IMG/VR virus record: IMGVR_UViG_3300036715_002842
Location: 32,001-96,000 of that record
Source of the DNA: a virus
Length of the DNA: 64,000 nt
Direction: 5' to 3' (one strand)
The notes under the pieces were generated by a model. It saw nothing but the letters and a program-made list of their open reading frames with translations. It did no database searches and had not been told where the DNA came from. Below, in pieces: positions 1,080 to 24,966 of the stretch. Numbering within the stretch: position 1 is the stretch's first letter; each line of letters opens with the position of its first letter. A program made the position numbers and the translations under genes.

Positions 1080-1080
1080 A

Positions 1081-1921: not shown

Positions 1922-1924
1922 GAA

Positions 1925-2007
1925 TGGAGGCCCGGTGGAGAGTCGAACTCCTAACCTTTCGGACGAGGGTTGCAATCTCGCGCCAGTCCACACCAGCTTC
2001 CCGAGCC
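1925..2007 (-). tRNA. tRNA-Cys(GCA) with tRNA-Sec-like (selC*-like) fold
   Basis: GCA anticodon and U73-CCA. Also a 6-bp D stem with 4-nt loop, extended anticodon stem, CC-GAAA-GG variable hairpin and 4-bp T stem. Confidence 0.8.
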
Positions 2008-2025
2008 TAGGTCTTGCATCTTGAA

Positions 2026-2102
2026 TGGTAGCCCAGGTGGGAGTCGAACCCACAGAACCCAGATTTTGAATCTGGTACCTATACCAATTCGGTTACTGAG
2101 CC
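2026..2102 (-). tRNA. tRNA-Leu(CAA) lacking the long variable arm
   Basis: CCAGA-TTCAAAA-TCTGG anticodon arm, 5-nt variable loop, A73 and CCA. Confidence 0.88.
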
Positions 2103-2291
2103 ATTGAGTACGTGGCGGACCCTTTCATAGTTTCCACCCTTTGGAGTCAATCCAACTTGTAGTAGGATTTGACGAATGTTTTTGCAAGTTTTAGACGCTT
2201 CTGAAATTTGCTCATCTGTTACTTTTGTCTTGCAGTTGATGTTTCTTCCTCGGTACGTTTCAGTTTGGCTATGACAGTTTGGACATAGAAG
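2103..2291 (-). pseudogene. HNH homing endonuclease C-terminal remnant
   Basis: Manual translation LLCPNCHSQTETYRGRN...NIRQILLQVGLTPKGGNYERVRH matches the end of the HNH motif typical of phage tRNA-region endonucleases. No start or N-terminal half. Confidence 0.75.
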
Positions 2292-2305
2292 AGAATTTTA
2301 AGGAT

Positions 2306-2587
2306 TGGTGCGCCCGGCCGGAATCGAACCGGCACGCTCTTACGAACAACAGATTTTCATCCTACTTCATGTTGCCATGACCGTTTCCGTTGTAGGCTGG
2401 ACTATCCCTTGACCTTATCCGAGGACTTAGGCCCCCACCGTCTAGTCTCTACACCTTCCTATTTCTAGGCTTGGCTCGGGATTGTCCTAAGGAGTTTCCC
2501 CGAATTTGATGGGATTCACGCTGGAGGTTTCCGACCCAGGTGCTCAAATCATAAGTCTGTGGCGTCTACCAGTTCCGCCACGGGCGC
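2306..2587 (-). tRNA. tRNA-Leu(UAA), split by a group I intron (exons 2553-2587 and 2306-2357)
   Basis: Joining ...CAGACTT to AAAATCTG... restores the loop CT-TAA-AA. Long variable arm and CCA. Confidence 0.92.
2358..2552 (-). mobile_element. Group I self-splicing intron (IC3-like, 195 nt, no ORF)
   Basis: Starts after U and ends in G. Core motifs CAAATTCGGGGAAAC, GTAGAGACTAGACGG and AAGGGATAGTCC. Inserted U^AA in the anticodon, as in cyanobacterial and plastid tRNA-Leu introns. Confidence 0.92.
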
Positions 2588-2716
2588 AAAAGTTAGGGCT
2601 CGCTACGACACTTCCCACCTATCGATGGATCAACATGCCACCGGGTCTTACGGCCACACCTAACACAACCTCCGATTTACCCAAGATAATCGGTTTAAAA
2701 TACTGCTTGGGGCAGT

Positions 2717-2804
2717 TGGAGCGGGAGATGGGACTTGAACCCACGATGGACTTTCGTCACGTCAGCTTGGAAGGCTGATGCCTTAACCACTAGGCTACAC
2801 CCGC
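2717..2804 (-). tRNA. tRNA-Gly(UCC) with an atypical long variable arm
   Basis: GCGGG acceptor, TCAGC-CTTCCAA-GCTGA, U73-CCA and a 17-nt variable region containing GAC-GAAA-GTC. Confidence 0.88.
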
Positions 2805-2939
2805 TTTGGAGAAACCTGGAAAATTTCATCCAGATTTCAAGGTAGAAGGAAAATTTGTGGCAACGTGATGACATTCGCTACTACGTATCCCCAAGCCTAA
2901 CACTCTAGGTAGCTTGGTTTATGTCAAGAGGACTTTTAT

Positions 2940-3308
2940 TGGTGGAGGTGGGGGAAATCGAATCCCCGTCCGAAAAGCTTCAGAAGGTAATTCATTCACA
3001 GGCTTAGTTCGAATCTAGTGACCTCTGTGGAGGATCGAACAACTCCAATCGAGGACTTGTTCCTTTGTCTCAACTGGAAGCCAGGAACACTCTTCCAATC
3101 CAGTTTATCTCTTCACCTCAGCAGGACGAATCCACCCTCGGATCTGATGCAACTAGGCTACTAAACGATCACCTAGAGGTTGCTGCTTACGCAGCCTGGA
3201 GAAAACGATCGTTTTCGGCAGTTGTGTTTGTTGGGCTTTTTAGGAGGCCAGCCCACCTCCGCCTGCACTACACTCCGGATTAGCCATCCGTCGAAACCTG
3301 GCACCCCC
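2940..3308 (-). ncRNA. ssrA: tmRNA, tag peptide (A)AENDRFLQAA* at 3187-3219
   Basis: 5' GGGGGTG...TTCGAC and 3' GGACGGGGATTCGATTTCCCCCACCTCCACCA with G3-U70. Internal resume frame ends Ala-Ala-TAA. Confidence 0.96.
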
Positions 3309-3441
3309 AAGAGTTGGATTGGCTTGTAGGACCAATCCTGAGAGATCGTTACATTTGGTTTGCACCTACTAACGATTCACACCTTAGCACCGGTTCACCT
3401 TCCACCGAAAGGTTCCCCAAGTTGCTTAGACCTGGGAATTG

Positions 3442-3512
3442 TAGGTCCAGAGGGTATCGAACCCTCTTCCTCGCCTTAAAAGGGCGATGCTTCACCTTAA
3501 AGCTTTGGACCC
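3442..3512 (-). tRNA. tRNA-Lys(UUU), CCA not encoded
   Basis: TCGCC-CTTTTAA-GGCGA anticodon arm and GGGTCCA/TGGACCT acceptor. Confidence 0.88.
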
Positions 3513-3604
3513 GTTTGATGGGGATAGGAGGCAATGACCCATTCGGAGCCGCCTACCGTTAACCCATGCTGGACCCCACGGTCAGACCAGCATGCCCAAG
3601 ATTC

Positions 3605-3680
3605 AGACCAAAGAGTGGGTTCGAACCACTGTCCTCCCCAGACGTGCTGGGCGCTCTGACCGGCTGAGCTACCTTGGTCC
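3605..3680 (-). tRNA. Atypical tRNA-like RNA (ACG in a 5-nt loop, no U33, no CCA)
   Basis: Canonical D and T arms and acceptor stem, but the anticodon arm is CCCAG-CACGT-CTGGG. Confidence 0.6.
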
Positions 3681-3684
3681 TTTC

Positions 3685-4524
3685 CAGCTAGTGCACTAGC
3701 GTCAACAAGCCCGGATGTGGGTCTAGAACTCCACGGGGCTTGCAGGGAACTGATTGGTGGTAGCCCGATCCTCTGCTACTGAGCAAGTTGACCGGCACCT
3801 CATCGGGATGACGACCAACTGGCACCGAAGTGCACCACGGGGCTTGCAGGGAACTGATTGGTGGTAGCCCGATCCTCTGCTACTGAGCAAGTTGACCGGC
3901 ACCTCATCGGGATGACGACCAACTGGCACCGAAGTGCACCAAAGAACTACTTCACTCCCTCCTTTCTCCGGAGCAGCTCGAACTTCGCTGCCGCGGCCAG
4001 AAGGGATCCTGACTGAACCACCGCCTGCAACTGCGAGACGGTCATCCTACGCACGCTCTCTGCGTGCTTGCTTGATTGTGCCATGGGGCACCTCCTTCCA
4101 ACAAGTTGTTGGAAGGTCTTACGTGTCTGCGTACCTCATCGTTGCTCCTTTTGGAAAAGTGGAAGGATCGGGTTCGGTGTTATTTCACCCTCCAGGTCGT
4201 GTAACGTCCTAGGGAAGTCCCACCCGATTTCTTGAAGATATTTGGTTGGGGATTGGTGGCCACCGCACCCCAACCTACCTGTCGGTCCTATTGCCGTGGA
4301 TCGTTCATTCCCAACCTCCACGAGGAGTAGGTCCTTTTCGTCCCTGTTGGCAGCGACCGGTCTGTGCCGGGCTCACCGCTAGTTCTGTGGAGTCAGGGCT
4401 CCAGACATCCCGAGGGGAATTTGCACGGGACGATCTTGTGTTACAGAAAGGTACGAGTAGGAGTTCGCAAAGCTCCATTCTCCACTCATTGCGGAGATCC
4501 TGCACTTGGAGGTGATACTCGTAA
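3685..4524 (-). ncRNA. Candidate large structured ncRNA B (~730-840 nt)
   Basis: No credible ORF. Many perfect helices, e.g. 4452-4459/4516-4523, 4094-4103/4107-4116 and 4051-4067. Lies inside the tRNA operon. Confidence 0.55.
3731..3941. repeat. Exact tandem duplication of a 104-bp unit
   Basis: 3731-3834 is identical to 3835-3938. Confidence 0.95.
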
Positions 4525-4601
4525 TGGTCGGCTATGAGTGATTCGAACACTCGACCTTCGCGACCCAAACGCGACGCGCTACCAGGCTGCGCTAATAGCC
4601 G
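4525..4601 (-). tRNA. tRNA-Pro(UGG)
   Basis: C1-G72, loop TTTGGGT, A73 and CCA. Confidence 0.95.
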
Positions 4602-4798
4602 GGAGGACTCGGTTTTAGTGGAGTTGACTGGAACCCGACCCCGAGTCACCCAGTTGCGCTGCTCCGCTGGGATGCCGGAGGTATTCACCGCTTTCGCGGG
4701 GCGCTGGAGGTCCCCTCAGTCAGTGGGAACCGGGGTCTAACACCTGATGCGCTTTTCGCTCTTGGGCCGCTTTTCATGACCGTTCAGGCAGTTACCTT

Positions 4799-4872
4799 TG
4801 GTTAGGGTGGTAGGATTCGAACCTACGAGGGGAGCGTCAAAGACTCCTGGTTTACCGCTAGCCTACACCCCA
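4799..4872 (-). tRNA. tRNA-Gln(UUG)
   Basis: U1-A72, GGAGT-CTTTGAC-GCTCC, CCA. Confidence 0.92.
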
Positions 4873-14897: not shown

Positions 14898-15153
14898 AAG
14901 ATTTCTCTACCCCCTCTGGGCTATTTGCCCGGATAATTGAGTCCAAGATCCATCAAGGATGACTCGATGCTGGTCACCACCTTAGGCACTTTCAGAAACC
15001 CGTGTAAAATAACGGAGATTCGAGGTACCACGGGTCAAATGGTGGTTGGTATTCTATCCGTTAAGAGTATTACTTTCTACCATTTGAGGAAAGTTCTAAA
15101 GGGCAATTTTCTGGGTGACTTTGCATTTTCAAAGTTCCTCAAAAAATTGAGCC

Positions 15154-15181
15154 TTGATTTTTCTTCGAGACCCGGTAAATT
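15154..15181 (+). promoter_or_regulatory. Sigma70-like promoter
   Basis: TTGATT-N16-TAAATT upstream of 15252. Confidence 0.5.
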
Positions 15182-15251
15182 AGTAGTATATGTTCCCCAG
15201 AGGCCCCGGCTCCCCCACCTTCTCTACTGCCCCACTTTCTAGAGGTGCTTA

Positions 15252-16343
15252 ATGCGCTTGCTGATGTTCCGGTCTCAACTCACACCTCAGGGGATAACAT
15301 TCGTACCTCGTGAGGGTGAGCCGGCGCGATATAGCATCTTCCAGGACATCCACGACTACATCAAGATGAGCACTGAGAGTCTTCTCCATCCTCAGGCGGC
15401 GGTCGATCTGGTCATGGACAGCATCGCTCTACGTATCCTGCACCTGCCTCAGGCTCCGGACCACAAGGAGATCTACAGCAGTCAGTGCACCATCCGTAAG
15501 ACCAATGCGGATACCGGGAACGAGTGGTATGAGAAGACCCGGGACTTCAAAAACAAGTTTATGTATTGCATCAACTTCAACCGTATATCTCGTGCAGCGG
15601 AAGAAGCGATTGACAATCCGAAGAAGACCCTCATCTCTATTGCCAGCTTCTGGGATGTTTCCGAATACGAACTGGAACAGATTCTGAACTGGTATTACGA
15701 AACCGGACAGCAGCTCTACGGTGCCAAGGACCAGCGCCCTGAGTGGTGGGGGCAGCGCATTGATGAGGTTGCCCGCTACAAGGCTCTGGAATTTGAGTTC
15801 GTCAAGCAGGTGAACAAGAAACTGGCTACCCCGGCCTTCAGCTACCTCGTGGACTTCTACGAGTCCAGAGAATCCATCGTCCAGGACTTGATGCGAGAAG
15901 CCTGGCGCGCAGTTCTGGATACTTCCCACAAGCCGGAGCTTGATACCCTTCGCATGGGTAAGACCTACATCAATACGGTCATCCATCACGTGGCCCAGAG
16001 CTACACCAAGCACCATGGGAAGCAGGCTTACAACAAGCAGAACGATACTTACGAGACCATCGAGTTCTCTCTTCTGAGTGAACCGGACATGGATGAGTCC
16101 AAGCACTTCTTCCTGGCCCACGAGGTAAGTGAGTATCACGAAATGGAAGTCTTCCATACCCTCGACAAGGTTCTGGCTGACAATGAGATGACCCTGGTGC
16201 GGGTCCTCACTGGTGATCTGGAGAGTCCGGAATTCGAGAGTTACGCCTCGGGAATGTCCAGTCGTAGGATTGCGGCCTTCACCTTCTTCAAGGTGGACGC
16301 TGAGAACCTGCGGGACAAGTTCGGATACCTGTTCCACAGCTAA
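15252..16343 (+). CDS. Putative divergent sigma-factor-like protein
   Basis: ESIVQDLMREAWRAV resembles sigma region 2 and TLDKVLADNEMTLVRVL resembles the start of region 4. Confidence 0.45.
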   Translation: MRLLMFRSQLTPQGITFVPREGEPARYSIFQDIHDYIKMSTESLLHPQAAVDLVMDSIALRILHLPQAPDHKEIYSSQCTIRKTNADTGNEWYEKTRDFKNKFMYCINFNRISRAAEEAIDNPKKTLISIASFWDVSEYELEQILNWYYETGQQLYGAKDQRPEWWGQRIDEVARYKALEFEFVKQVNKKLATPAFSYLVDFYESRESIVQDLMREAWRAVLDTSHKPELDTLRMGKTYINTVIHHVAQSYTKHHGKQAYNKQNDTYETIEFSLLSEPDMDESKHFFLAHEVSEYHEMEVFHTLDKVLADNEMTLVRVLTGDLESPEFESYASGMSSRRIAAFTFFKVDAENLRDKFGYLFHS

Positions 16344-16391
16344 GTTCAAAAACCTCCAACCTTCTACTAAAATAGGTGGAAGGAGGTTTTC

Positions 16392-16769
16392 ATGGTCTGG
16401 TTTAAAAAACCTTCACCAGTTGGAGTTAAGAAAGAGCACTCCAAAAACGTGGAAACTCTACTTTCGATGGTTCCGCACCCAATTCGTGCCCTCAAAGAAC
16501 TCATTAGTCCCGGCGGTCCAAGTGTGGCCACTCTGGTTACCCTCACGACTTGCATGTGCTTGAACGTTGAGTGCCTGATACTTGTGTGGTTCCGCGCCAA
16601 GTGGAACCAGCCAGTGACTGCGGAGCTTACGATCATAGCCGGTATGCTAAGCGCGCTCATTGGCTACGTGTACCATCGCTACAAGTCCTCGGAAGAGAGA
16701 ACCGCGGCTCACAAGCCGAAAAGATCAACGGATAAGAACCCTCTTACGCGTGCAGAGGATAAGGGTTAG
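16392..16769 (+). CDS. Small membrane protein (holin-like)
   Basis: Two hydrophobic segments, basic C-terminus and strong AGGAGG RBS. Confidence 0.5.
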   Translation: MVWFKKPSPVGVKKEHSKNVETLLSMVPHPIRALKELISPGGPSVATLVTLTTCMCLNVECLILVWFRAKWNQPVTAELTIIAGMLSALIGYVYHRYKSSEERTAAHKPKRSTDKNPLTRAEDKG

Positions 16770-16826
16770 AGTTACTCGAAGGAGCGCTCTACCCCGTTAA
16801 TCTCGGCAGCAATCACCGTTTGGCCT

Positions 16827-17105
16827 CTAACTAGCGAGCGGCAGCTTTTCAATTTCTGCCATGAATGAAGGTGGGGTTGTGAAAGCTGCCGCTCGAGGTA
16901 TCTTAAAGTACGGATCGGTAAATCCGATGGCACCTTCAGAGATGGCATCCTTAATAAGGAACCGTGGAGTGTCCAGGATGACCAGAGTTTCGTTCTTCCA
17001 CTCTTCCGGATACTCTAGAACGAACTGAGCAATAGCGTGCCCAGCTTGAGACATCTTTTGTCCGAAAGAAAGTTTTTCGTCGATCAGAATGTAGAGCTTA
17101 GTCAT
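16827..17105 (-). CDS. Pth2-like peptidyl-tRNA hydrolase
   Basis: KLYILIDEKLSFGQKMSQAGHA, WKNETLVIL, FTDP and C-terminal KLPL match the phage Pth2-type pattern. GAGG RBS before ATG 17105. Confidence 0.75.
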   Translation of the reverse strand: MTKLYILIDEKLSFGQKMSQAGHAIAQFVLEYPEEWKNETLVILDTPRFLIKDAISEGAIGFTDPYFKIPRAAAFTTPPSFMAEIEKLPLAS

Positions 17106-17409
17106 CGCTTTCCTCGTCTTCATCGTTCTTCTTGATGAGATAGGGTTTGAGAGGGTCCATATAAATGACCCCATCCTTCTTGAACGCTTCCTCGATTGCA
17201 GACATGGGAAACTTGAAAGTGTAATAGTTGTCGTTACAACTGTAAGAACAACGGCAAGGATTCACTTCCCGAATATTCGCGATAAGATGGTCACCCTCCA
17301 TTCGAAATCCCTGCAACCTAAAGTTGCTGAAGAGCTTGGAGTGATAGAAGGCGTCCTTGAGCTTCTGTTCAAACTTCTTCGTGGCTTGAAGGGTTTCGGT
17401 GTAAGACAT
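17098..17409 (-). CDS. Hypothetical protein
   Basis: GGAG RBS before ATG 17409; overlaps the Pth2-like start. Confidence 0.65.
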   Translation of the reverse strand: MSYTETLQATKKFEQKLKDAFYHSKLFSNFRLQGFRMEGDHLIANIREVNPCRCSYSCNDNYYTFKFPMSAIEEAFKKDGVIYMDPLKPYLIKKNDEDEESDD

Positions 17410-17499
17410 TGGAATTCTCCACAAGTTGTAAAAGTTGATTGACAAACCGGATATGCAGCTCCGTTAACATCCTCTTCAAAGGCTTGCTGTCTAACCTCT

Positions 17500-17673
17500 T
17501 CAGATTGTGGGATGGTAATCCTTTCCAGCAATCTTTACCCAGTTTGACATTCCAATCAAGAGGTGACCGTGCTGAGAAGGGGAGAAGGGGACTAGCCCCT
17601 TCCCATCACAGTGCAGACTTGGCTTAGACGATTCGAAGACCGTCCGGCAACCAAGACAGATCCACTCTTTCAT
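17500..17673 (-). CDS. Small Cys-containing protein (57 aa, not in the ORF track)
   Basis: TGATG coupling to the upstream gene; MKEWICLGCRTVFESSKPSLHCDGKG... Confidence 0.5.
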   Translation of the reverse strand: MKEWICLGCRTVFESSKPSLHCDGKGLVPFSPSQHGHLLIGMSNWVKIAGKDYHPTI

Positions 17674-18119
17674 CACTTCCCCTCTTGCATGTCGAGGAGG
17701 ATCTGCGTACTCAGACCCTGCTGGAAGTCCAGAGTCTCCTTACGGAAACGCTTCTTCTCTTCCCAAGCGGCGATGTCCTCAGCAATCATTTCCTTCCATT
17801 CCGCGAGCTGGCGCTGAGAATAGTGGTCGGCTTGCTTGTGGAAGTAAGAACGGCTGGGATTCCGGTTGGGCTCGATCTGCTCGAGGGTACGTCCACGGAG
17901 AAGGCAGTAAGCGATGTGCTTCGCTCTCCAATTCTGATCGTCGCAGCTGTAGAAGTTCTCGGGCTTGATTGCCAGGAGCTTGGCGCGAAGTTCTTCCTGT
18001 TGCTCCCCGGGAATGGAAGGCTTGAAGGTGGCATCGTAACGCCGTTCCCAATGCCTGCAAGCCACTTCGTGCTTGAGCTCTGCCTTGATGGTTGCGATCA
18101 GTTCTTTGTAAGTGGTCAT
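17673..18119 (-). CDS. Phage protein of unknown function (RAKHIAYCLLRGRTLEQIE motif)
   Basis: GGAG RBS. I recall this motif from phage proteins found near Pth2-like genes, but that recollection is unverified. Confidence 0.75.
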   Translation of the reverse strand: MTTYKELIATIKAELKHEVACRHWERRYDATFKPSIPGEQQEELRAKLLAIKPENFYSCDDQNWRAKHIAYCLLRGRTLEQIEPNRNPSRSYFHKQADHYSQRQLAEWKEMIAEDIAAWEEKKRFRKETLDFQQGLSTQILLDMQEGK

Positions 18120-18121
18120 TA

Positions 18122-18173
18122 GATTCTCCGAAATTTGAAAAGTTTGAGAAAAGGTTTTCGAATTTGGAGAATC
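18122..18173 (-). promoter_or_regulatory. RBS-sequestering hairpin
   Basis: GATTCTCC (18166-18173) pairs with GGAGAATC (18122-18129), which contains the RBS of the 148-aa gene. Further pairing is possible inside the loop region. Confidence 0.7.
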
Positions 18174-18198
18174 ACTAAGGTGGGCGGTTCTACGTCAT
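18172..18198 (-). other. Leader minigene 2: ATG ACG TAG (readthrough MT*NRPP then TAG TGA)
   Basis: AAGGAG RBS 6 nt upstream of the ATG. Confidence 0.7.
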
Positions 18199-18219
18199 CG
18201 TAGGCTCCTTTACGAACAG

Positions 18220-18260
18220 AAAAAACCCAACAGAGGCTGCTGGGCAGCTGATCCGTTGGG
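18220..18260 (-). terminator. Intrinsic terminator/attenuator in the leader
   Basis: CCCAACGGA/TCTGTTGGG stem with an inner GCTGC/GCAGC hairpin, followed by T6. Confidence 0.75.
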
Positions 18261-18320
18261 GAGGAAGTGTTCTTGCGAACACAGATTTTTGTGGTGTGGC
18301 AAAACTTTGGAGCCGCGAAT

Positions 18321-18329
18321 CTACTTCAT
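18321..18329 (-). other. Leader minigene 1: ATG AAG TAG (readthrough open to TAA at 18210-18212)
   Basis: GAGGGA RBS 7 nt upstream; 36 further sense codons span the terminator. Confidence 0.65.
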
Positions 18330-18342
18330 GGTCTTGTCCCTC

Positions 18343-18380
18343 AAATGGTTGGTACTACCCAAAATGGTTGGTACTACCCA
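18343..18380. repeat. Two tandem copies of AAATGGTTGGTACTACCCA (19 bp)
   Basis: Seen directly, immediately downstream of the predicted transcription start. Confidence 0.85.
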
Positions 18381-18387
18381 AAGACTA

Positions 18388-18416
18388 ATTATAACCCCGG
18401 ATCTTTCGTTTGCCAA
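18388..18416 (-). promoter_or_regulatory. Sigma70-type promoter of the Pth2 operon
   Basis: TTGGCA-N17-TATAAT. Confidence 0.75.
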
Positions 18417-18480
18417 GGTTTGACGGAAAAATTATTTTACCCTTGGCTTCATGGTTACATATCAGTGACGATCTTGATGG

Positions 18481-19518
18481 TCATGGCTGACTCCCAGAAG
18501 TAAGGACGTTTCGTTCCATGGGCTGACCGTGCATCCAGTGTTTCACGGTCTGGACATGGGAGGCCCGGACGAACTTCCCAACCTTGACCCGAAACTCAGA
18601 GAAGGGGAATGCCTCGGCCACCCGGACCACATAGCCCTCCTGGCGATCCCATTTGCGCTTGTCCCACAAGGCGCGGATGGCCTTTTCGTCATAGATTCCG
18701 TCGTAGAGTACGGGAACAGGAGTAATCCCCAACAGGGCAAACCATTCCAGCGTCTCGTCCCAGGGGAGGCAGATGTTCCGGTCATCCCAGATGGAGAACC
18801 CAAGCAGGTAGCTGGGAAGGCCGTCGTAGCCGATGGAATGCTTGGCGTAGAGGTTTTCGCCGCACACTCGCCATCCTTCCGGGATGTCCATACGGATCTG
18901 GGACCAGAATTGCTTGACCCAGTTCCGGCTGGGGTGACTGCGCCCATCCAGGCTCCGAGCGTGGATGTGATCCTGGTAGAGGGACGTGTTTTCTCCGTCC
19001 ATTTTCTCGGTAACGATCACCCGCTTCCCTGCGAGGGCTGCGGTGGAATCCATCATTCGGTCGTCGTCGTTCATTCCCTCCGACCATGGCAGATGGTGGG
19101 TCCTGGGATACTTGACCCAGTGGGTGAATAGGCTAAGAACGCCGCCAATGGCGAGCACCTTCTGAACGCTCTCGTCATGGAACAACTCCCCCTTGAGGCG
19201 CTGGCCATTGGGGAGGATGGGATTCCCCCACTTGTCATAAGGCTGGTCCGCGTAGAGATGTGGTGGGAGCAAAGATTTGGTGATCCCGCAGGCGTTACGA
19301 ACATCCTCGGTGGAGATCTCTGTGGTTTCGCACCGCATGTGGTGATCGCCACAAACGGAAGCGCCGTTGTCGAGGTAGTAGCCTCCGTCCGGCCACAGTC
19401 TGCGTTCCAGGATGTGGTGGGCGTCCGCAGCAGGTTCCCCGCAGAAGACACAGCGGCCCTTGGCGCGAGCAAACACGGCCTCGCGGAAAGCGTCTCTGGT
19501 TAGCAGCAGGGCGTTCAT
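18481..19518 (-). CDS. HNH domain fused to an ATP-dependent RNA ligase (Rnl2-like)
   Basis: N-terminal CVFC...DAHHI...NGASVCGDHH HNH motif. KYPRTHHLPWS, TEKMDGEN (motif I), GENLYAKHSI, EGYVVR and KFVR ligase motifs. Confidence 0.88.
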   Translation of the reverse strand: MNALLLTRDAFREAVFARAKGRCVFCGEPAADAHHILERRLWPDGGYYLDNGASVCGDHHMRCETTEISTEDVRNACGITKSLLPPHLYADQPYDKWGNPILPNGQRLKGELFHDESVQKVLAIGGVLSLFTHWVKYPRTHHLPWSEGMNDDDRMMDSTAALAGKRVIVTEKMDGENTSLYQDHIHARSLDGRSHPSRNWVKQFWSQIRMDIPEGWRVCGENLYAKHSIGYDGLPSYLLGFSIWDDRNICLPWDETLEWFALLGITPVPVLYDGIYDEKAIRALWDKRKWDRQEGYVVRVAEAFPFSEFRVKVGKFVRASHVQTVKHWMHGQPMERNVLTSGSQP

Positions 19519-19639
19519 TGGGTGGTTCCTTTCGAGTTGGATTCATTACATTTCAGACGCTACCGTATGGCGTACCTGTGGGTGTATCCCCTTGAATTCT
19601 GGCTCGTAGTGTTTCAAAGCGGTTTCACTCTTAAAAAAG

Positions 19640-19711
19640 TCCCCACGGTGGTAGTCGAAACCACGACACAGTGTTTTAGAAGCACCTGCTCTACCGTTGA
19701 GCTACGTGGGG
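19640..19711 (-). tRNA. Amber-suppressor tRNA (anticodon CUA), CCA not encoded
   Basis: CCCCACG TA GCTC AACGGTA GAGC A GGTGC TTCTAAA ACACT GTGTC GTGGT TTCGACT ACCAC CGTGGGG A. Canonical spacing places CUA at 34-36. Confidence 0.85.
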
Positions 19712-19730
19712 AAAGATCTGCTACCTAGAA

Positions 19731-19758
19731 AGAATAACCTTGAATTTTGAATTGTCAA
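19731..19758 (-). promoter_or_regulatory. Sigma70-type promoter of the suppressor tRNA
   Basis: TTGACA-N16-TATTCT, about 20 nt upstream of the tRNA. Confidence 0.75.
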
Positions 19759-19770
19759 TCCGAAATTATG

Positions 19771-19797
19771 AAAAAGCGACCAGTTCTCTGGTCGCTC
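19771..19797 (-). terminator. Intrinsic terminator after the actin-like gene
   Basis: AGCGACCAG-AGAA-CTGGTCGCT followed by a T-run. Confidence 0.7.
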
Positions 19798-19825
19798 TTA
19801 AGAACAGGAAGAAAAGTTAAATTAT

Positions 19826-20815
19826 CTATTCATCTGAGTGCGCCAGGGCAGCGAACAGGCACCCCTTCGCGATAGCCTTCAGAGGATCCTCAGCACGAAC
19901 TACCTTGCCAATCTTGATGGGGAGGTTCTGCGCCTTGAGAGCCTCTTCGAACAGTTCGATGAACCCGCCGGGAAGAGAGGTTCCACCTGCGACTGCGATC
20001 TTGGGCGGCTTCTGGAAGTCTGGTAGCTTCGCCATGCCAAGGAGTTTGTCCTTGATTTGCTTGGCTACGTACTCCAACATCGCCTTGTAGTAGTACGAAA
20101 TGGCTTCCTCGGTCTGATCCTTGGGCTTGCGGAGATCAATGATCCCCTCCTTTGCGAGCATAGCCTTGACCGTGGAGATACCCAGAGAGGTGGAAACGTT
20201 CTTGTCAATGTAGTCACCGGAACGGGCTACGGAGAAGTTGAAGGCTTCCACACTCAATTGTGCGCAGCAGACATTGCACATGCCAGCGCCCCACGAAACA
20301 CCAAAGCCAGAAAGATTGTCCTCGAGGAGTTCACTGTAAATGACCGACAGACCTTCATTGAGTGGTACTGGAGTGTAACCCATGTCGGTTAGGATCTTGT
20401 TGAACACATTCGAGTGGTAAACTGCATTGAACTCCTGATCGACTGGATCCCCTGGGACGGAGTAGACCACCTTTTCTTTCTTGGTGGCAGGAGCCCCAAG
20501 GGACTCTTTGATGATCGCCTGGATGATTGGCAGCGCCTTAATCTCATGGGGATTGAGAACACCTTGCGACATAGGTCGCTTGGGCTCACTGTTGAAAGCG
20601 CTAGCGAGCTCCAGTGCCTGCTGACCTAAAGCAGAAATTTCCCCCTCAAGTTCCACGTAAGGTGCACCCACCTTCTTGAGCATCGATTTTACGAAGGGGG
20701 ATTTCTCTACTGGTACGAAGATATTGCGGAAAGCTTTGTACTCGAAGCTCTCCCCATCTGCACCAACCCTCGCAGCTACGATATTTCCAGTTCCCAAATC
20801 TAGTCCACAGGGCAT
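19826..20815 (-). CDS. Actin-like ATPase (MreB/FtsA/ParM superfamily)
   Basis: GLDLGTGN (phosphate 1), LNEG, SWGAGMCNV (phosphate 2), VAGGTS (adenosine) and DPLKAIAKG. Confidence 0.88.
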   Translation of the reverse strand: MPCGLDLGTGNIVAARVGADGESFEYKAFRNIFVPVEKSPFVKSMLKKVGAPYVELEGEISALGQQALELASAFNSEPKRPMSQGVLNPHEIKALPIIQAIIKESLGAPATKKEKVVYSVPGDPVDQEFNAVYHSNVFNKILTDMGYTPVPLNEGLSVIYSELLEDNLSGFGVSWGAGMCNVCCAQLSVEAFNFSVARSGDYIDKNVSTSLGISTVKAMLAKEGIIDLRKPKDQTEEAISYYYKAMLEYVAKQIKDKLLGMAKLPDFQKPPKIAVAGGTSLPGGFIELFEEALKAQNLPIKIGKVVRAEDPLKAIAKGCLFAALAHSDE

Positions 20816-21408: not shown

Positions 21409-21698
21409 TTTTCAAAGATTCGAAGGTCGCCCAGATCGAACGAGACCTGTATTCCGAACGAGTCCTTCGCAGCTTTTTCTAACTTTGCAACCAGAACGTG
21501 AACTGGAGGATCTACGGAGTTGTCACACTCACCCCGCTTTATTTCCAGGATTCTTGAGGACTTGAAGCAAAGATAGAAGGATTCTTCATCAAATTCCATA
21601 TAAAACGGGGAAGTAGCCATTCCCACCCGGTAATTGATATCCGGGGACCATTTGAAATATCTTTGTGAAACGGTTTTCATAAGTTCACGAATTTTCAT
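21399..21698 (-). CDS. Hypothetical protein
   Basis: Overlaps both neighbours on the same strand. Confidence 0.55.
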   Translation of the reverse strand: MKIRELMKTVSQRYFKWSPDINYRVGMATSPFYMEFDEESFYLCFKSSRILEIKRGECDNSVDPPVHVLVAKLEKAAKDSFGIQVSFDLGDLRIFEKCH

Positions 21699-23380
21699 AT
21701 TTTCACCAATTCAAATTTTAATTGTCCGCAATCCCAGATTCGAAGGATTCCCGCTTGATCCATAATTTCTTTCTGCGTTCCAGAAAGGTGTGGAAATCTC
21801 TTTGATAACTTATCGTGTGTGTAGTTCAAACGGTTGATTCTGAAGTCTCTGAAATTTTCAAAACCATGAAAACTGGGCGGAATTTCACCCACAAGACTGA
21901 AACCAGTTTTTAGATACAATTCCCCACGACTCCAACATCCATCAGCAAAGGTGTAAATTCTTTTCCAATTTACCTTTCTTTTGAAGTGTTCGAGAAGTTT
22001 AGAAAATCCACCTACAACACTGCAAGAGGTTGCGTAACGATTGAGATCGTAGGACCCATTTCCCATGGATTTGAGGGTTAACATCGCAACGAGAGCACCC
22101 CCATTCTGAAGCGCGTAGGTTATCGAACCAGCGCCATCCCCTTTGATATGATTTGTCTCATAGAAACTCTTCTTTTGCTGTGAAGTTGGAATTAAGATTG
22201 AACATTTTCTAGCAAAAACTCTTTCTTTTTCTAATCCAACGAAAGCTCGAATTTTCTTTTCAAGTAGGGTTCTCTTAAGTAACCAATCATCCGACCAGAT
22301 ATGAATCAACCTAATTCCCAACCGTTCACATTCGAGGGTCTTTTCGTGGTGGTACTCTGGTTTTTGATGGAGTTCTGAATGCCAGTAAAGACCGTTGTAT
22401 TCAAAAGCTAGTTTGAAATCTGGTAGATAAACATCTATTTCTTTTCTAGATTCAGAAATCTTACCCACCATTTTCGCTAGTTTCTGAAAAGATAACCTTG
22501 CTATCGTTTTCAATTCTAGAGAATCTATGAAGTCAATGAAAGATCTTTCTTCCGCACTACTTCCCTGGTTAGCAAAACCTCTTAACTCCAAATTGGAGTA
22601 TTTCCAGAAGTAATTCGAAGCACCTGCCGCGTTGATTCCAAGTTCAGCTGCAATCTGATCAATACTTCTTTGTTTGTTGCAATACTCTTCTTTCCAGAAT
22701 TCTTCTGAAGTAATTTTTTCGATGATTGCTTGAGGAAGCTTAGGTCTTTGAACAATTCTGCGTCCCCTCGAACTCTGGATAAAATGGGCCACACCATACT
22801 TTCTTAGACTAGTCTCCCTACTTTTCAACTTTATTGATTCAAGTACCGCTGGATTTTCTACCCCATATTTCTGTAAACAGGTGGCTTTCATCTTTAATCT
22901 TATTGATTTTTGTAAGTCAACATTTTTCAATTTCTCCGATATTTTTTCTTTGACTTCCACCGCCTGACTAGCGTTTTCAACTCCAAACCTTTCCAAGTTA
23001 GTTTCTTTCATTCGTTGCTTAACTATATCGGATTGAGCTGGGTGATGAGTTCCATAGTGATTTTGAGAAGTTTCGGCTTTCTTCTTCTTAACTATATCAG
23101 ATTGACTAGCATTTTCAACTCCGAACCGTTCCAAGTTCGTTTCTTTCATTCGTTGCTTAACTATATCAGATTGACTAGCATTTTCAACTCCGAACCGTTC
23201 TAAGTTCGTTTTTCTACACTTGTCAAGAATTTCTTCTTTAGAGGTCTCTAAAATTCGAAGTCTACTTTCACTTTTTCTTTTTCTTGTTGCTGGACAAGAG
23301 TTTGCGGATTTTCCACATCGAGAAGGTTTTTCCGGTGGAAACACCGCAATTAAACCACACCCATACTTACACAACTTCAT
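21695..23380 (-). CDS. Putative free-standing homing endonuclease (Hef-like: 23-aa repeats plus a PD-(D/E)xK/Vsr-like domain)
   Basis: TNLERFGVENASQ repeats (69-bp period, about 22960-23215), EIDVYLPDFKLAFEYNGLYWHS, LIHIWSDDW, RIWDCGQ; AT-rich. Confidence 0.8.
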   Translation of the reverse strand: MKLCKYGCGLIAVFPPEKPSRCGKSANSCPATRKRKSESRLRILETSKEEILDKCRKTNLERFGVENASQSDIVKQRMKETNLERFGVENASQSDIVKKKKAETSQNHYGTHHPAQSDIVKQRMKETNLERFGVENASQAVEVKEKISEKLKNVDLQKSIRLKMKATCLQKYGVENPAVLESIKLKSRETSLRKYGVAHFIQSSRGRRIVQRPKLPQAIIEKITSEEFWKEEYCNKQRSIDQIAAELGINAAGASNYFWKYSNLELRGFANQGSSAEERSFIDFIDSLELKTIARLSFQKLAKMVGKISESRKEIDVYLPDFKLAFEYNGLYWHSELHQKPEYHHEKTLECERLGIRLIHIWSDDWLLKRTLLEKKIRAFVGLEKERVFARKCSILIPTSQQKKSFYETNHIKGDGAGSITYALQNGGALVAMLTLKSMGNGSYDLNRYATSCSVVGGFSKLLEHFKRKVNWKRIYTFADGCWSRGELYLKTGFSLVGEIPPSFHGFENFRDFRINRLNYTHDKLSKRFPHLSGTQKEIMDQAGILRIWDCGQLKFELVKI

Positions 23381-24966
23381 AGTGAAGCCGCCATATCATT
23401 TTCTTTCACTCCACCAGTTAGATCCGTCACCTGGTAGTTAAGAACGTTCGTGCAGACCTTCTTGAACTTCGCAGCACACCCATATAATATCCCAGTACCG
23501 GAATCCGCCCAGTAATAGGTTCGTGGCAAGAACTTGCGTGCGTAGAAGCGCTGCACTCGACCAATTACCTGCTCAATGAATACCTCGTTCGCGGTTGGGC
23601 AAACGATGTGTAAGGTATCAATGCAGGGGATATCAGTTCCCTCGGAGAACAGTTGCTTGGTTGCCACGAGGACATCAATCTTGTTGTTGTAGATTATATT
23701 GATCTGCGCACGCATGTCGGCGTTCAAATCCAATTTCTTTACCTCTTCGAGGAACTGTGGCCAAGTGAGGATTGGATCCCAGTCGATCTCATTCGCTGCG
23801 GCAAGAGAAGAGGTTACGTAGTCAATTGCTTTCTCAAGACCTGTGATCCGGTCAACCAGACTATCTCGATCGGCCTTCTTCATTGGCCCAGTGACACAGG
23901 CGGCGCTGATGCCAGAACTTATGAGCATCGCAGCCAGATTTTCAGCGTGGGCGACTCGCTCGGTAATCACCAGAATACGCCTATTTTCAGCCTGATTCTG
24001 AATTACCTTTTGGACTATCTTCTCATTGCGCGCCTTGTTTTTCACCACGACCGACATGACGGAAACCCAGTTCATGTTCTGCGGCAAAGGGAAGTGGCAG
24101 CCCTTGAGAATCTCGATCTCGCAGTTGTTCTTTACCTTACTCTCATACCGAACGGGTCCGAGAAGATCTGGAAGGAGAAGATGGTAGTTGTCCTTCCGCT
24201 TGGGAGTTGCGGAAACCCCCACAAAGATCTGCGGGTTCATGTACTTCAGGATCTTTGTCAAACTAGCGGCAGGAGCGCGATGGCACTCATCCACCATCAC
24301 TAATCCGAAAAGATTTTGGATTTTCTTCAGTCGATTCACTACATCGTAGTTCACTAGCTGGTAAGTCGAAACTGTAATGGGATAATAGACCGGTTCCCCG
24401 TTCTTGTCGAATTCGAGCTCCCCAACCAACTTTCTGCCAGTTTGAGCTTCAAGTTCGTTGATGTTGGTGTAATCTCGCAACCTAGTAACGAATTGGTCCT
24501 TCAAGTCTACCTTGTTCACTAGGAGAAGGATCTTTTGTTGCTGGAGAGTGATGAACGCAGTCATCACTACAGTCTTACCATAAGCCGGTGGAGCCTGGAA
24601 GATACCACCAATGTTCGGGGTAATGAATGCTTTGATTCCGGCTTTCTGATCATCCTTCAACTTACCGGTGAACTGTAAATCTAATCCAAGGGGGGCATTG
24701 GTTCTACGATCATCAAACTCGAAGTCTTTGAAGAGGTATTGGATCTTGTTAACATCCCCACGGCAGAAAGCGATGTACTCCCCAACCGGACGGTACATAC
24801 GTACATACTCTTCGAGGACTGGGTTGTCCTCATAGTTGTCGTACCCGAAGTCAACCTTCTGTTCGAACCGGTATGTGAAGGACTGCAGAATCGAGGGATT
24901 CTGTTCGACCCACACCCTTGGCACGTAGAGTGCATCTGCGAGAATTGCTTTCACGGCACACCTCAA
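23377..24966 (-). CDS. SF2 DNA helicase (UvsW/XPB-like)
   Basis: APPAYGKT, VDECH, SATPKRKD, SEGTDIP and QVIGRVQR. Confidence 0.9.
   Translation of the reverse strand: MRCAVKAILADALYVPRVWVEQNPSILQSFTYRFEQKVDFGYDNYEDNPVLEEYVRMYRPVGEYIAFCRGDVNKIQYLFKDFEFDDRRTNAPLGLDLQFTGKLKDDQKAGIKAFITPNIGGIFQAPPAYGKTVVMTAFITLQQQKILLLVNKVDLKDQFVTRLRDYTNINELEAQTGRKLVGELEFDKNGEPVYYPITVSTYQLVNYDVVNRLKKIQNLFGLVMVDECHRAPAASLTKILKYMNPQIFVGVSATPKRKDNYHLLLPDLLGPVRYESKVKNNCEIEILKGCHFPLPQNMNWVSVMSVVVKNKARNEKIVQKVIQNQAENRRILVITERVAHAENLAAMLISSGISAACVTGPMKKADRDSLVDRITGLEKAIDYVTSSLAAANEIDWDPILTWPQFLEEVKKLDLNADMRAQINIIYNNKIDVLVATKQLFSEGTDIPCIDTLHIVCPTANEVFIEQVIGRVQRFYARKFLPRTYYWADSGTGILYGCAAKFKKVCTNVLNYQVTDLTGGVKENDMAASL

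What the first reader, a model, noticed from the sequence alone, without database searches (positions are those of the whole stretch)
16827..19758. Candidate new system: translation-termination sensing and rescue module (suppressor tRNA, RNA ligase, amber-gated operon, Pth2)
Seen, all on the minus strand and insulated upstream by a terminator (19771-19797): promoter > tRNA(CUA) > HNH-RNA ligase > promoter > two amber minigene attenuators > 148-aa, 57-aa and 103-aa proteins > Pth2-like hydrolase. Known: RNA ligases repair cleaved tRNAs, Pth recycles dropped-off peptidyl-tRNA, and many anti-phage systems attack tRNAs or translation. Inference: the phage supplies both an amber-reading tRNA and amber-dependent switches, so the rescue operon responds to the ratio of suppressor tRNA to RF1. 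This could act as an infection timer or as a sensor of host translational sabotage, using UAG as a regulatory codon without recoding the genome. I know of no description of this circuit but could not search for one.
Basis: partly seen in the sequence, partly recalled or inferred. Interest (0 to 1): 0.85.

Follow-up and report, generated by a model that had tools for sequence, protein, structure and literature searches.

The report
Amber-gated phage operon with suppressor tRNA
A large phage that otherwise uses the normal genetic code carries its own UAG-reading tRNA and puts two tiny UAG-interrupted leader genes in front of a conserved two-gene operon, one gene being a peptidyl-tRNA-hydrolase look-alike, so the operon is probably made only while that stop codon is being read through; I found no published natural switch of this kind.

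Summary
Comparison with about 110 other phage loci shows that the core is not chance.

- **Conserved core.** A helical "HIAY..RGR..EQIE" protein and a Pth2-fold protein form a gene pair, sometimes fused.
- **tRNA link.** A suppressor tRNA lies within 4 kb in 99 of 110 loci. It is the nearest tRNA in 94 of 106 loci; about 27 would be expected.
- **Leader.** About 80-125 nt upstream of the pair, many lineages keep a ribosome-binding site followed by ATG-NNN-TAG. TAG occurs 34 times, TAA 6 and TGA 2, although TAA trinucleotides are three times commoner there.
- **Read-through.** It usually ends in Pro-Pro-stop, on or just before the sequence that hides the next gene's ribosome-binding site.
- **Gate matches tRNA.** Three loci with an opal (UCA) tRNA have TGA in the leader instead.

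The window has two such gates: the first crosses an intrinsic terminator and the second abuts an RBS-hiding hairpin.

The RNA ligase recurs beside the pair in only one other lineage, and the 57- and 103-aa genes are lineage-specific. What the two proteins do is unknown, and nothing here is experimental. This scan has already noted the same design on other DNA. I found no published description of it.

The parts
19772..19799 (-). Hairpin plus T-run ending the upstream actin-like gene's transcript; it insulates the module
   Evidence: Inverted repeat I14, 12-nt arms 92% complementary, followed by TTTTT
19731..19758 (-). Promoter-like site for the tRNA (TTGACA-16-TATTCT)
   Evidence: Consensus scan, 10 of 12 matches; consensus match only
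19639..19711 (-). tRNA with anticodon CUA (amber suppressor); no encoded CCA; T-run follows
   Evidence: ARAGORN; Rfam RF00005 57.7 bits. Its nearest relatives are the CUA tRNAs of other Pth2-linked loci
18481..19518 (-). HNH-RNA ligase, 345 aa; a recurrent but not obligatory neighbour
   Evidence: PF09414 E 3e-32; phrog_24030 E 3e-141; HNH phrogs at residues 5-68. The same fusion lies directly upstream of the amber leader in L099/L101 only
18388..18416 (-). Promoter-like site for the gated operon (TTGGCA-17-TATAAT)
   Evidence: 11 of 12 matches
18343..18380 (-). Two perfect 19-nt tandem repeats at the start of the leader transcript; role unknown, possibly an operator
   Evidence: the repeat finder family D2; unique in the window
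18210..18329 (-). Leader ORF 1: GAGGGA-7 nt-ATG AAG TAG. Read-through gives a 39-codon frame that crosses the terminator and ends at TAA overlapping the RBS of leader 2
   Evidence: Sequence; ORF frame
18220..18260 (-). Intrinsic terminator (hairpin 18226-18260, T6 at 18220-18225) inside leader ORF 1
   Evidence: Terminator scan; RNA fold of the leader, z = -3.5
18172..18198 (-). Leader ORF 2: AAGGAG-6 nt-ATG ACG TAG AAC CGC CCA CCT TAG TGA, i.e. Met-Thr-amber-Asn-Arg-Pro-Pro-amber-opal
   Evidence: Sequence. The same M-x-amber-...-P-P-stop design sits at -78 to -126 in many lineages
18122..18173 (-). Hairpin whose 5' arm GATTCTCC (18166-18173) pairs with GGAGAATC (18122-18129), the ribosome-binding site of the 148-aa gene
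   Evidence: Inverted repeat I1; minimum-energy folds
17673..18119 (-). 148-aa all-helical partner protein (core RAKHIAYCLLRGRTLEQIEPNR), first gene of the conserved pair
   Evidence: Directly upstream of the Pth2-like gene in L001/L002 and most loci; fused to it in P0007, P0055 and others; model pLDDT 87.8 with no fold match
17500..17676 (-). 57/58-aa Cys-rich ORF; lineage-specific insert
   Evidence: No Pfam/PHROG hit; absent from all related loci
17098..17409 (-). 103-aa ORF; lineage-specific insert
   Evidence: No Pfam/PHROG hit; absent from all related loci
16827..17105 (-). 92-aa Pth2-fold protein, second gene of the conserved pair; its ATG overlaps the stop of the 103-aa ORF
   Evidence: Family of about 675 representatives; weak PF01981 hits in relatives; solved Pth2 profile hits; model pLDDT 94.8 with Pth2 top fold hits

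Best explanation
This is a phage 'suppressor-tRNA cassette'. It consists of a UAG-reading tRNA and a two-gene operon (helical partner plus Pth2-fold protein). Expression of the operon is locked behind UAG codons in its own leader.

**Proposed mechanism in the window (inferred from anatomy and comparison):**
1. Transcription starts at the 18416-18388 promoter.
2. A ribosome loads on leader 1 (ATG AAG TAG). If RF1 wins, it leaves, the hairpin at 18226-18260 forms and transcription ends at the T-run. If tRNA(CUA) wins, the ribosome follows the polymerase across the terminator and stops at a TAA that overlaps the ribosome-binding site of leader 2.
3. On leader 2 (ATG ACG TAG AAC CGC CCA CCT TAG TGA), termination at the first TAG leaves the downstream hairpin intact, and the 148-aa gene's ribosome-binding site stays hidden. 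Read-through carries the ribosome to Pro-Pro-stop, a slow-terminating context. There its footprint covers the 5' arm GATTCTCC and frees GGAGAATC, so the operon is translated.

Output therefore reports how well UAG is being read through, that is, charged tRNA(CUA) against RF1, with two or three read-through events in series.

**Proposed function (weaker inference):** the two proteins work as one unit on the acceptor end of a tRNA species tied to suppression. This could be hydrolysis of peptidyl- or aminoacyl-tRNA. The effect could be to clear by-products of read-through or to feed back on suppressor activity.
For: **Shown by comparison**
- The Pth2-like family is tied to suppressor tRNAs. Of 110 unique loci, 99 carry one within 4 kb, 57 of them within 150 nt. 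It is the nearest tRNA in 94 of 106 loci against 27 expected; the maximum in 20,000 simulations was 42. Thirty-nine of 42 clusters at 70% identity have one. Two of three further loci from a separate genome collection also do.
- The partner gene sits directly upstream in nearly all lineages. It is fused to the Pth2 domain in at least 10 representatives, or joined to it through an in-frame TAG.
- Two-codon minigenes within 160 nt upstream of the operon: TAG 34, TAA 6, TGA 2. Background trinucleotide counts there are 286, 868 and 363. This gives p = 5e-18 by locus; by lineage the counts are 14, 5 and 1, p = 9e-7. The position is conserved at -78 to -126.
- Read-through peptides end in Pro-Pro near a stop in 31 TAG leaders, against 1 TAA leader and 0 TGA leaders.
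- The partner's ribosome-binding site is paired in the minimum-energy fold in 11 of 13 leaders, against 16 of 42 other genes of the contig. Its pairing partner lies on or within about 12 nt after the Pro-Pro-stop.
- The three UCA-tRNA loci have leaders MKR[IL]-TGA-TRN[RK]GPDN, while their CUA sister locus has MKH-TAG-INLIPP-stop.
- In six of 110 loci the Pth2-like frame can be reached only through a stop codon, and all six are TAG.
- The window's leader folds better than shuffled sequence, z = -3.5.

**From the literature**
- A C-terminal Pro-Pro motif interferes with termination (PMC3834316).
- RAPP and RGPP peptides arrest ribosomes (PMC10951233, PMC12992588).
- Termination slows and drop-off rises as minigenes shorten to two codons (PMC2490762).
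- Engineered TAG-in-leader switches work (Liu et al. 2011, as described in PMC6412442).
Against: - Nothing is experimental. It is unknown whether the tRNA is made or charged, and with which amino acid.
- TAG ends 30 of 110 ORFs in this contig, including genes of 1565 and 1065 aa. An efficient suppressor should therefore be costly to the phage.
- The window's motif is N-R-P-P, not the characterised R-[AG]-P-P.
- Only about a third of lineages have TAG exactly at codon 3. Others have it at codons 4-6 or show no leader I could recognise.
- Pairing of the ribosome-binding site in a minimum-energy fold discriminates only moderately: 38% of control genes also show it.
- The leader-1 terminator arrangement has a clear counterpart only in L002.
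- Many loci are close relatives, so locus-level counts overstate independence. The lineage-level counts are the safer ones.
- The window protein lacks the canonical Pth2 lysine position (Q16). It has Pro-Arg where most of the family has Glu-Pro-Asp. Hydrolase activity is therefore doubtful for this subgroup.
Confidence: 0.6

Rival explanations
1. The tRNA(CUA) exists for genome-wide TAG recoding (code 15) of late genes. These genes would lie in the unsequenced 60% of the genome. The Pth2-like pair merely sits in the tRNA neighbourhood, and the leaders are incidental.
For: The record is a fragment, with a CheckV completeness estimate of 38%. The same gene pair occurs in Lak megaphages, which are reported to be TAG-recoded (10.1101/2021.08.26.457843). 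Suppressor tRNAs track recoding in that survey.
Against: Across the 105 kb available, which on my reading of the ORF map includes long blocks of large (possibly structural) genes, TAG ends 30 of 110 ORFs. No convincing pair of coding segments is joined by TAG. Recoding would not explain the TAG-specific, position-conserved, Pro-Pro-ended leaders, nor the TGA leaders with UCA tRNAs. The two readings can coexist in recoded phages.
Confidence: 0.12
2. This is a tRNA-repair and ribosome-rescue island, as proposed for jumbo-phage PTH2 and RNA ligases. The ligase reseals cleaved tRNAs and Pth2 frees peptides from damaged peptidyl-tRNA. The CUA tRNA and the minigenes play no regulatory part.
For: PTH2 in jumbo phages is discussed in exactly this RNA-repair context (PMC7824862). 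An HNH-RNA ligase is adjacent here and in L099/L101. The contig also encodes 13 tRNAs and a tmRNA.
Against: The ligase is next to the pair in only one of the 42 lineages apart from the window's own, within 4 kb. The suppressor tRNA is there in 39 of 42. PMC7824862 does not mention suppressors. This rival does not explain the gate codon following the anticodon.
Confidence: 0.1
3. The two-codon minigenes act like the lambda bar minigenes. They shed dipeptidyl-tRNA and so load or probe peptidyl-tRNA hydrolase capacity. The leader would sense drop-off or Pth activity rather than suppression.
For: Drop-off rises and termination slows as minigenes shorten to two codons, and minigene toxicity depends on Pth activity (PMC2490762, which cites the lambda bar work). 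A Pth-like gene lies downstream.
Against: Drop-off should not care which stop codon is used. Yet TAG is enriched about 17-fold over TAA after correcting for composition, and it changes to TGA with a UCA tRNA. The conserved Pro-Pro-stop lies beyond the TAG and would never be translated under this model.
Confidence: 0.06
4. The arrangement is chance: ordinary small genes, a stray tRNA, and random ATG-NNN-TAG strings in a long intergenic region.
For: ATG-NNN-TAG is not enriched contig-wide: 36 occurrences on both strands, against about 50 by my arithmetic.
Against: The statistics across lineages; the conserved position and peptide ending; the natural fusions.
Confidence: 0.02

Closest known systems
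Leader-peptide translational attenuation (ermC, cat, cmlA type) and RAPP/RGPP arrest peptides (ApdA, ApdP; SecM with RAGP): PMC7897499, PMC10951233, PMC12992588
   Same: A short leader ORF has its own ribosome-binding site. A proline-rich C-terminal stall site places the ribosome on the 5' arm of a hairpin that hides the next gene's ribosome-binding site. Many relatives carry literal RGPP or RSPP.
   Different: The stall site is reached only after a stop codon is read through by a phage-encoded tRNA. The input is therefore decoding of UAG, not an antibiotic or secretion activity. The window has R-P-P-stop, so the pause would be at termination rather than the characterised R-A/G-P-P elongation arrest. 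The regulated genes are a Pth2-like pair, not sec/yidC or resistance genes.
Engineered amber-in-leader switches (Liu, Qi, Yanofsky and Arkin 2011, as described in PMC6412442, section 6)
   Same: A TAG placed in a leader peptide makes downstream transcription depend on amber suppression. This is the logic proposed for leader 1 and its terminator.
   Different: Those switches are synthetic, built on tna/trp leaders with orthogonal tRNA/synthetase pairs. The element here is natural, is conserved across many phage lineages, and comes with its own tRNA.
Phage stop-codon recoding and the 'code change module' of suppressor tRNA, aaRS and release factor (10.1101/2021.08.26.457843)
   Same: A phage-encoded suppressor tRNA lies next to translation-related genes, with a proposed role in timing of expression. 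The same Pth2-like pair occurs in Lak megaphages.
   Different: This contig uses TAG as an ordinary stop and encodes no release factor. That paper does not mention a hydrolase or peptidyl-tRNA. Here the TAG-containing targets are regulatory leaders, not structural or lysis genes.
Peptidyl-tRNA hydrolase 2 (PF01981; PDB 2zv3, 1wn2, 1xty, 1q7s), noted in jumbo phages (PMC7824862)
   Same: Same alpha/beta fold, and the same N-terminal signature (hydrophobic strand, D/N-x-L..Q..HA).
   Different: About 20 residues shorter and below the Pfam threshold. The lysine position is Tyr or Gln. It is always paired or fused with a helical partner and linked to a suppressor tRNA.
prfB (RF2) autoregulation through an in-frame UGA
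   Same: A stop codon early in a message reports termination efficiency and sets expression of a translation-termination-related gene.
   Different: prfB uses a +1 frameshift and host RF2. This element uses read-through by a dedicated tRNA together with RNA-structure gates.
Lambda bar minigenes (cited in PMC2490762)
   Same: Two-codon ORFs with Shine-Dalgarno sequences in a phage; genetic interplay with peptidyl-tRNA hydrolase.
   Different: As I recall, the bar minigenes end in UAA or UGA, and their known effect is toxicity in pth-defective hosts. The minigenes here are TAG-specific and continue into a conserved read-through peptide.

Membership tests
Peptidyl-tRNA hydrolase 2 (Pfam PF01981) | Scores above the Pfam gathering threshold | tested here: not met
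   No hit for the window protein at E <= 0.1, and none in the whole contig at E <= 1. Thirteen of 56 relatives hit weakly, best 2e-6.
Peptidyl-tRNA hydrolase 2 (Pfam PF01981) | Pth2 alpha/beta fold | tested here: met
   Model pLDDT 94.8. The top ten Foldseek hits are Pth2 structures or structural-genomics homologues of them (1q7s, 1wn2, 2zv3, 1xty, 1rlk, 3erj), probability 0.98-1.00, TM 0.51-0.65. Profile hits to 2zv3_A (E 4e-4) and 24bt_A.
Peptidyl-tRNA hydrolase 2 (Pfam PF01981) | Catalytic Lys (in G-K-x-x-A-Q) and Asp (in D-A-G-x-T).
   The lysine position aligns to Tyr in the family consensus and to Q16 in the window, with K17 next to it. The Asp region aligns to E-P-D in most of the family, with one residue of register uncertainty, but to I-P-R in the window subgroup.
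Peptidyl-tRNA hydrolase 2 (Pfam PF01981) | Hydrolyses N-blocked aminoacyl-tRNA | not testable with these tools
   Needs an enzyme assay or complementation of pth(ts).
Leader-peptide translational attenuation (erm/cat type) | A short leader ORF with its own ribosome-binding site, upstream of a gene whose ribosome-binding site is sequestered in a hairpin | tested here: met
   AAGGAG-6 nt-ATG leader 2. GGAGAATC pairs with GATTCTCC. The site is paired in 11 of 13 related leaders against 16 of 42 control genes.
Leader-peptide translational attenuation (erm/cat type) | The stalled ribosome's footprint covers the 5' arm of the hairpin | tested here: met
   By geometry only. The second TAG and the TGA (18177-18172) abut or overlap the arm at 18173-18166. 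The first TAG (18192-18190) lies 17 nt upstream of the arm. Spacing is similar in L001, L151, L092 and L107.
RAPP/RGPP arrest peptides | An R-[A/G]-P-P motif at the arrest point | tested here: not met
   The window and L001 have N-R-P-P followed by a stop. Relatives have RGPP (L091, L092, L103, L132), RSPP (L095, L098, L115), or K/I-P-P.
RAPP/RGPP arrest peptides | Demonstrated ribosome arrest | not testable with these tools
   Needs toeprinting or reporter assays.
Transcription attenuation by a leader ORF over an intrinsic terminator | The leader ORF overlaps a hairpin-plus-T-run terminator, so that a translating ribosome prevents its formation | tested here: met
   The read-through frame of leader 1 (18329-18210) spans the hairpin at 18226-18260 and the T6. 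In L002 the read-through stop lies in the 5' arm of a terminator. No alternative antiterminator helix was looked for.
Stop-codon-recoded phage (code 15) with a code-change module | In-frame TAG codons inside conserved protein genes | tested here: not met
   TAG ends 30 of 110 ORFs. There are no credible TAG-joined coding segments in 105 kb. The record is only about 38% complete.
Stop-codon-recoded phage (code 15) with a code-change module | Suppressor tRNA together with a release factor or aaRS | tested here: not met
   The tRNA(CUA) is present. There is no RF-1 domain in the contig. An aaRS was not searched for.
RNA ligase (PF09414) with N-terminal HNH | Nucleotidyltransferase domain above the Pfam threshold, plus an HNH module | tested here: met
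   112.5 bits against a cut-off of 27. phrog_24030 E 3e-141 over the full length, with HNH phrogs at residues 5-68. Relatives in Caulobacter, Ralstonia and Salicola jumbo phages.

The most novel reading that the evidence does not exclude
The cassette is a self-contained controller of the genetic code inside an infected cell. The leader measures how well a stop codon is being read as sense. In response it makes a two-protein unit that acts back on the suppressor tRNA or on its competition with the release factor. The loop would either lock the cell into the new code (positive feedback, a sharp switch) or hold read-through at a tolerable level (negative feedback). In standard-code phages such as this one, the same circuit would serve as a timer or as a sensor of host interference with translation. 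This would explain why such phages keep an otherwise costly suppressor tRNA.
Probability: 0.25. Interest if true: 0.9.

Novelty: new variant of a known kind. Interest (0 to 1): 0.8.

Why it matters
Phage suppressor tRNAs are usually explained by wholesale stop-codon recoding. How the code switch is triggered, and why some standard-code phages carry such tRNAs, remain open questions.

This cassette gives the tRNA a concrete and conserved client. That client is a leader whose stop codon matches the tRNA's anticodon and whose read-through should uncover a hidden ribosome-binding site.

If the model is right, this is a natural version of the amber-controlled leader switches that synthetic biologists built in 2011. 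It also adds a new input, decoding of a stop codon, to the arrest-peptide class of regulators.

The cassette also marks a helical protein and a Pth2-fold protein, always paired, as candidate missing parts of the code-change machinery.

All parts are small and portable, so the model can be tested directly with reporters in laboratory strains.

Tried and rejected
**Searches that found nothing**
- The 148-aa protein alone found nothing by tblastn in GenBank phages or by pattern scan of IMG/VR. Its relatives appeared only through their position next to the Pth2-like gene.
- The partner has no hit in Pfam, in solved-structure sequences, in Foldseek against the PDB, in PADLOC or in the ESM Atlas.
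- The full 56-row alignment was too diverse for a pattern scan, so I used sub-alignments.
- A scan of prokaryote genomes with the window's subgroup found nothing. The broader subgroup gave three contigs in metagenome bins, two of them over 400 kb and perhaps mis-binned phages.
- Rfam finds only the tRNA in 16000-20500. The 19-nt tandem repeat occurs nowhere else in the window.
- A paper checked for Pth2 catalytic residues did not give them, so those residues are cited from memory.

- Complex prediction on partner plus Pth2-like returned 'no answer'. It is not used as evidence in either direction.

**Ideas rejected**
- The TAG-joined frame at 14937-16343 looked at first like a second amber-gated gene. 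I dropped it because the 101-aa upstream segment looks non-coding.
- ATG GGT TAG near window position -8848 is only upstream sequence, in frame with a normal start.

Full report
**Setting.** The window is bases 32001-96000 of a single 105,575-bp IMG/VR virus record. The record is linear and CheckV estimates it as 38% complete. GC content is 50%. It carries 13 tRNAs plus a tmRNA in an array at window 52-4872. The genes next to the module include a volactin-like actin and a helicase. The RNA ligase has relatives in Caulobacter, Ralstonia and Salicola jumbo phages. The contig is read in the standard code: a greedy ORF map covers 91% of it, and TAG ends 30 of 110 ORFs, including genes of 1565 and 1065 aa. 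I found no convincing pair of coding segments joined by an in-frame TAG.

All elements lie on the minus strand:
- a hairpin plus T-run at 19772-19799;
- TTGACA-16-TATTCT at 19758-19731;
- tRNA(CUA) at 19639-19711;
- a 345-aa HNH-RNA ligase at 18481-19518 (PF09414, E 3e-32);
- TTGGCA-17-TATAAT at 18416-18388;
- two perfect 19-nt tandem repeats at 18343-18380;
- GAGGGA-7 nt-ATG AAG TAG at 18329-18321;
- an intrinsic terminator, hairpin 18226-18260 with T6 at 18220-18225;
- AAGGAG-6 nt-ATG ACG TAG at 18198-18190;
- a hairpin at 18122-18173 whose 3' arm is the ribosome-binding site of the 148-aa gene;
- genes of 148, 57/58, 103 and 92 aa.

The leader RNA folds better than shuffled sequence (z = -3.5).

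**Read-through frames.** Past the first TAG, leader 1 stays open for 39 codons in all. It crosses the whole terminator and ends at a TAA that overlaps the AAGGAG of leader 2. Leader 2 reads Met-Thr-amber-Asn-Arg-Pro-Pro-amber-opal, and the final TGA overlaps the 5' arm of the RBS-hiding hairpin.

**The last gene is Pth2-like by fold, not by Pfam.**
- Pfam gives nothing for the window protein.
- A profile of five relatives finds 675 representatives at E <= 0.001 among 1.8 billion proteins, mostly 90-105 aa.
- Thirteen of 56 members hit PF01981 weakly.
- Family profiles hit solved Pth2 proteins: 24bt_A at E 8e-4 and 2zv3_A at E 4e-4, the latter over nearly its full length.
- The AlphaFold model (pLDDT 94.8) has Pth2 structures or their structural-genomics homologues as its top ten Foldseek matches (probability 0.98-1.00, TM 0.51-0.65).
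- The only invariant residue is the His of Q-x-G-H-A.
- The lysine that I recall as catalytic in Pth2 aligns to Tyr in the family and to Q16 here. The window's subgroup has I-P-R where most members have E-P-D. Fold membership is therefore supported, but enzymatic equivalence is not.

**Relatives show a conserved cassette.**
- Two 65%-identical homologues exist. A metagenome scan gave L001-L003.
- In L001 and L002 the homologue of the 148-aa protein sits directly before the Pth2-like gene, and a tRNA(CUA) lies upstream.
- In L003 and L004 a tRNA(CUA) follows the pair directly. In L005 the tRNA is UCA.
- IMG/VR scans with sub-alignments gave 160 loci, of which 110 are unique.
- Of these, 99 carry a suppressor tRNA within 4 kb (96 CUA, 3 UCA), and 57 of them have it within 150 nt.
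- The suppressor is the nearest tRNA in 94 of 106 loci. If the nearest tRNA were drawn at random from each locus's tRNAs, 27 would be expected, and 20,000 simulations never exceeded 42.
- At 70% identity, 39 of 42 lineages have a suppressor tRNA.
- Two of three further loci from metagenome-assembled genome bins also do.
- The only other gene family shared across lineages is the partner. It has a basic N-terminal helix and a core like (Y/F)RHxHIAYCxLRGRTxEQIE, or YVAYYI(L/F)KH in the low-GC phages.
- Partner and Pth2 domain are fused in at least ten representatives, for example P0007 and P0055. Some of these 'fusions' may be TAG read as Gln by the gene caller.
- The window's tRNA is most similar to the CUA tRNAs of other cassettes.

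**The leaders are conserved and specific for the matching stop codon.**
- In the 160 nt before the operon, two-codon minigenes end in TAG 34 times, TAA 6 times and TGA 2 times. TAA trinucleotides are three times commoner there than TAG (868 against 286). This gives p = 5e-18 by locus. By lineage the counts are 14, 5 and 1, p = 9e-7.
- They sit at -78 to -126 from the partner's ATG in many divergent loci.
- When TAG is read as sense, the peptides end in Pro-Pro close to a stop. Examples are MTxNRPP (window), MLxNRPP (L001), MYxISKPP, MKxIKIPP and MRxITYKPP. After a second TAG come ..IRPP..RGPP and ..RSPP.
- Such endings occur in 31 TAG leaders, 1 TAA leader and no TGA leader.
- The CCNCC of the proline codons, or a stretch up to 12 nt after the stop, pairs with the partner's GGAG. 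That site is paired in 11 of 13 leaders, against 16 of 42 other genes in this contig.
- The three UCA-tRNA loci carry MKR[IL]-TGA-TRN[RK]GPDN, while a sister CUA locus has MKH-TAG-INLIPP-stop. This is probably a single evolutionary switch, so it counts as one event, but it goes in the predicted direction.
- In six loci the Pth2-like frame can be entered only through a stop codon, and all six are TAG.
- A second leader ending, N-T-S-stop, recurs in L002, L086 and L097. L002 and L097 use different serine codons.

**Mechanism proposed.**
- A ribosome that terminates at the first TAG of leader 2 sits 17 nt short of the hairpin arm. A ribosome that reads through reaches Pro-Pro-stop, and its footprint covers GATTCTCC.
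- C-terminal Pro-Pro slows termination (PMC3834316). R-A/G-P-P peptides arrest ribosomes (PMC10951233, PMC12992588). This is the logic of erm/cat attenuation with a new trigger.
- Placing the gate at codon 3 may itself matter. Termination is slow on two-codon minigenes (PMC2490762), and that should favour the tRNA over RF1. This point is my inference.
- Leader 1 adds a transcriptional gate, which L002 mirrors.
- An engineered counterpart exists: TAG placed in tna/trp leaders (Liu et al. 2011, described in PMC6412442).

**What is not supported.**
- The HNH-RNA ligase recurs directly before the amber leader in only one other lineage, L099/L101, at 53-54% identity.
- The 57- and 103-aa ORFs have no relatives in any locus.
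- 'Rescue' is a guess. Iyer et al. proposed ribosome rescue for jumbo-phage PTH2 (PMC7824862) but did not mention suppressors.

**Literature and earlier scan notes.**
- The recoding survey (10.1101/2021.08.26.457843) does not mention a hydrolase or peptidyl-tRNA, and the theta-ribozyme paper (PMC10879173) does not mention a hydrolase or Pth.
- My searches found no natural amber-gated leader.
- This scan's own notes describe the same design on other DNA many times.
- I re-derived the association and the leader statistics independently. I took from the notes the leads to look for TAG-gated Pth2 starts, for gate/anticodon matching, and for the RAPP literature, and I checked each of these myself.

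**Verdict.** My confidence in the gating model is about 0.6. The function of the two proteins remains open.

Noticed in passing
window 2940-3308 (-), within the tRNA array at 52-4872: The phage encodes a tmRNA (tag peptide AENDRFLQAA) among 13 tRNA genes. L174, a 410-kb contig carrying the same Pth2-like family, also has a tmRNA. A link between read-through and non-stop ribosome rescue is conceivable.
   Followed up: no
window 19826-20815 (-): A 329-aa actin-fold protein matches Pfam Volactin (PF25216) at E 2e-79 over its full length. That is unexpected in a phage contig. L092 has a weak relative.
   Followed up: no
window 18343-18380: Two perfect 19-nt tandem copies (TTTGGGTAGTACCAACCAT-like) lie immediately after the -10 of the operon promoter. 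Each holds a small GGTA-N-TACC palindrome. The sequence is unique in the window and could be an operator.
   Followed up: partly
L002 1054-1130; L086; L097: A second class of amber leaders ends in Asn-Thr-Ser-stop. L002 (AGC) and L097 (TCC) use different Ser codons, which suggests selection on the peptide. In L002 the stop lies in the 5' arm of a terminator.
   Followed up: partly
L005, L035, L038 (about 100 nt before the partner gene): Loci whose linked tRNA is UCA (opal suppressor) have the leader MKR[IL]-TGA-TRN[RK]GPDN in place of a TAG leader.
   Followed up: yes
L043, L063, L107; proteins P0007, P0049, P0055, P0081 and others: The partner and the Pth2-like domain are joined through a single in-frame TAG in three loci. 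They appear as one polypeptide in at least ten database representatives.
   Followed up: partly
L004 4250-4550: A direct repeat of about 150 nt duplicates the region upstream of the partner gene, including a truncated copy of its first 18 codons that ends in TAG.
   Followed up: no
window 21695-23380 (-): A 561-aa protein has internal repeats (..NLERFGVENASQSDIVK..), a DUF7487 domain (E 2e-31) and a weak REase-like match. It is followed by a ResIII/SNF2-type helicase at 23377-24966.
   Followed up: no
L001 2005-2331; L003 1956-2288; L045 2560-2883: A small protein with a G-x-S-M-x-P motif, as in S24/LexA-type peptidases, lies near the Pth2-like gene in four lineages.
   Followed up: no
L172 (427-kb contig labelled Thermoplasmatota MAG), L174 (410-kb contig labelled Firmicutes): Cassette-bearing contigs of megaphage size sit inside metagenome-assembled 'genomes'. 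They are probably mis-binned phages.
   Followed up: no
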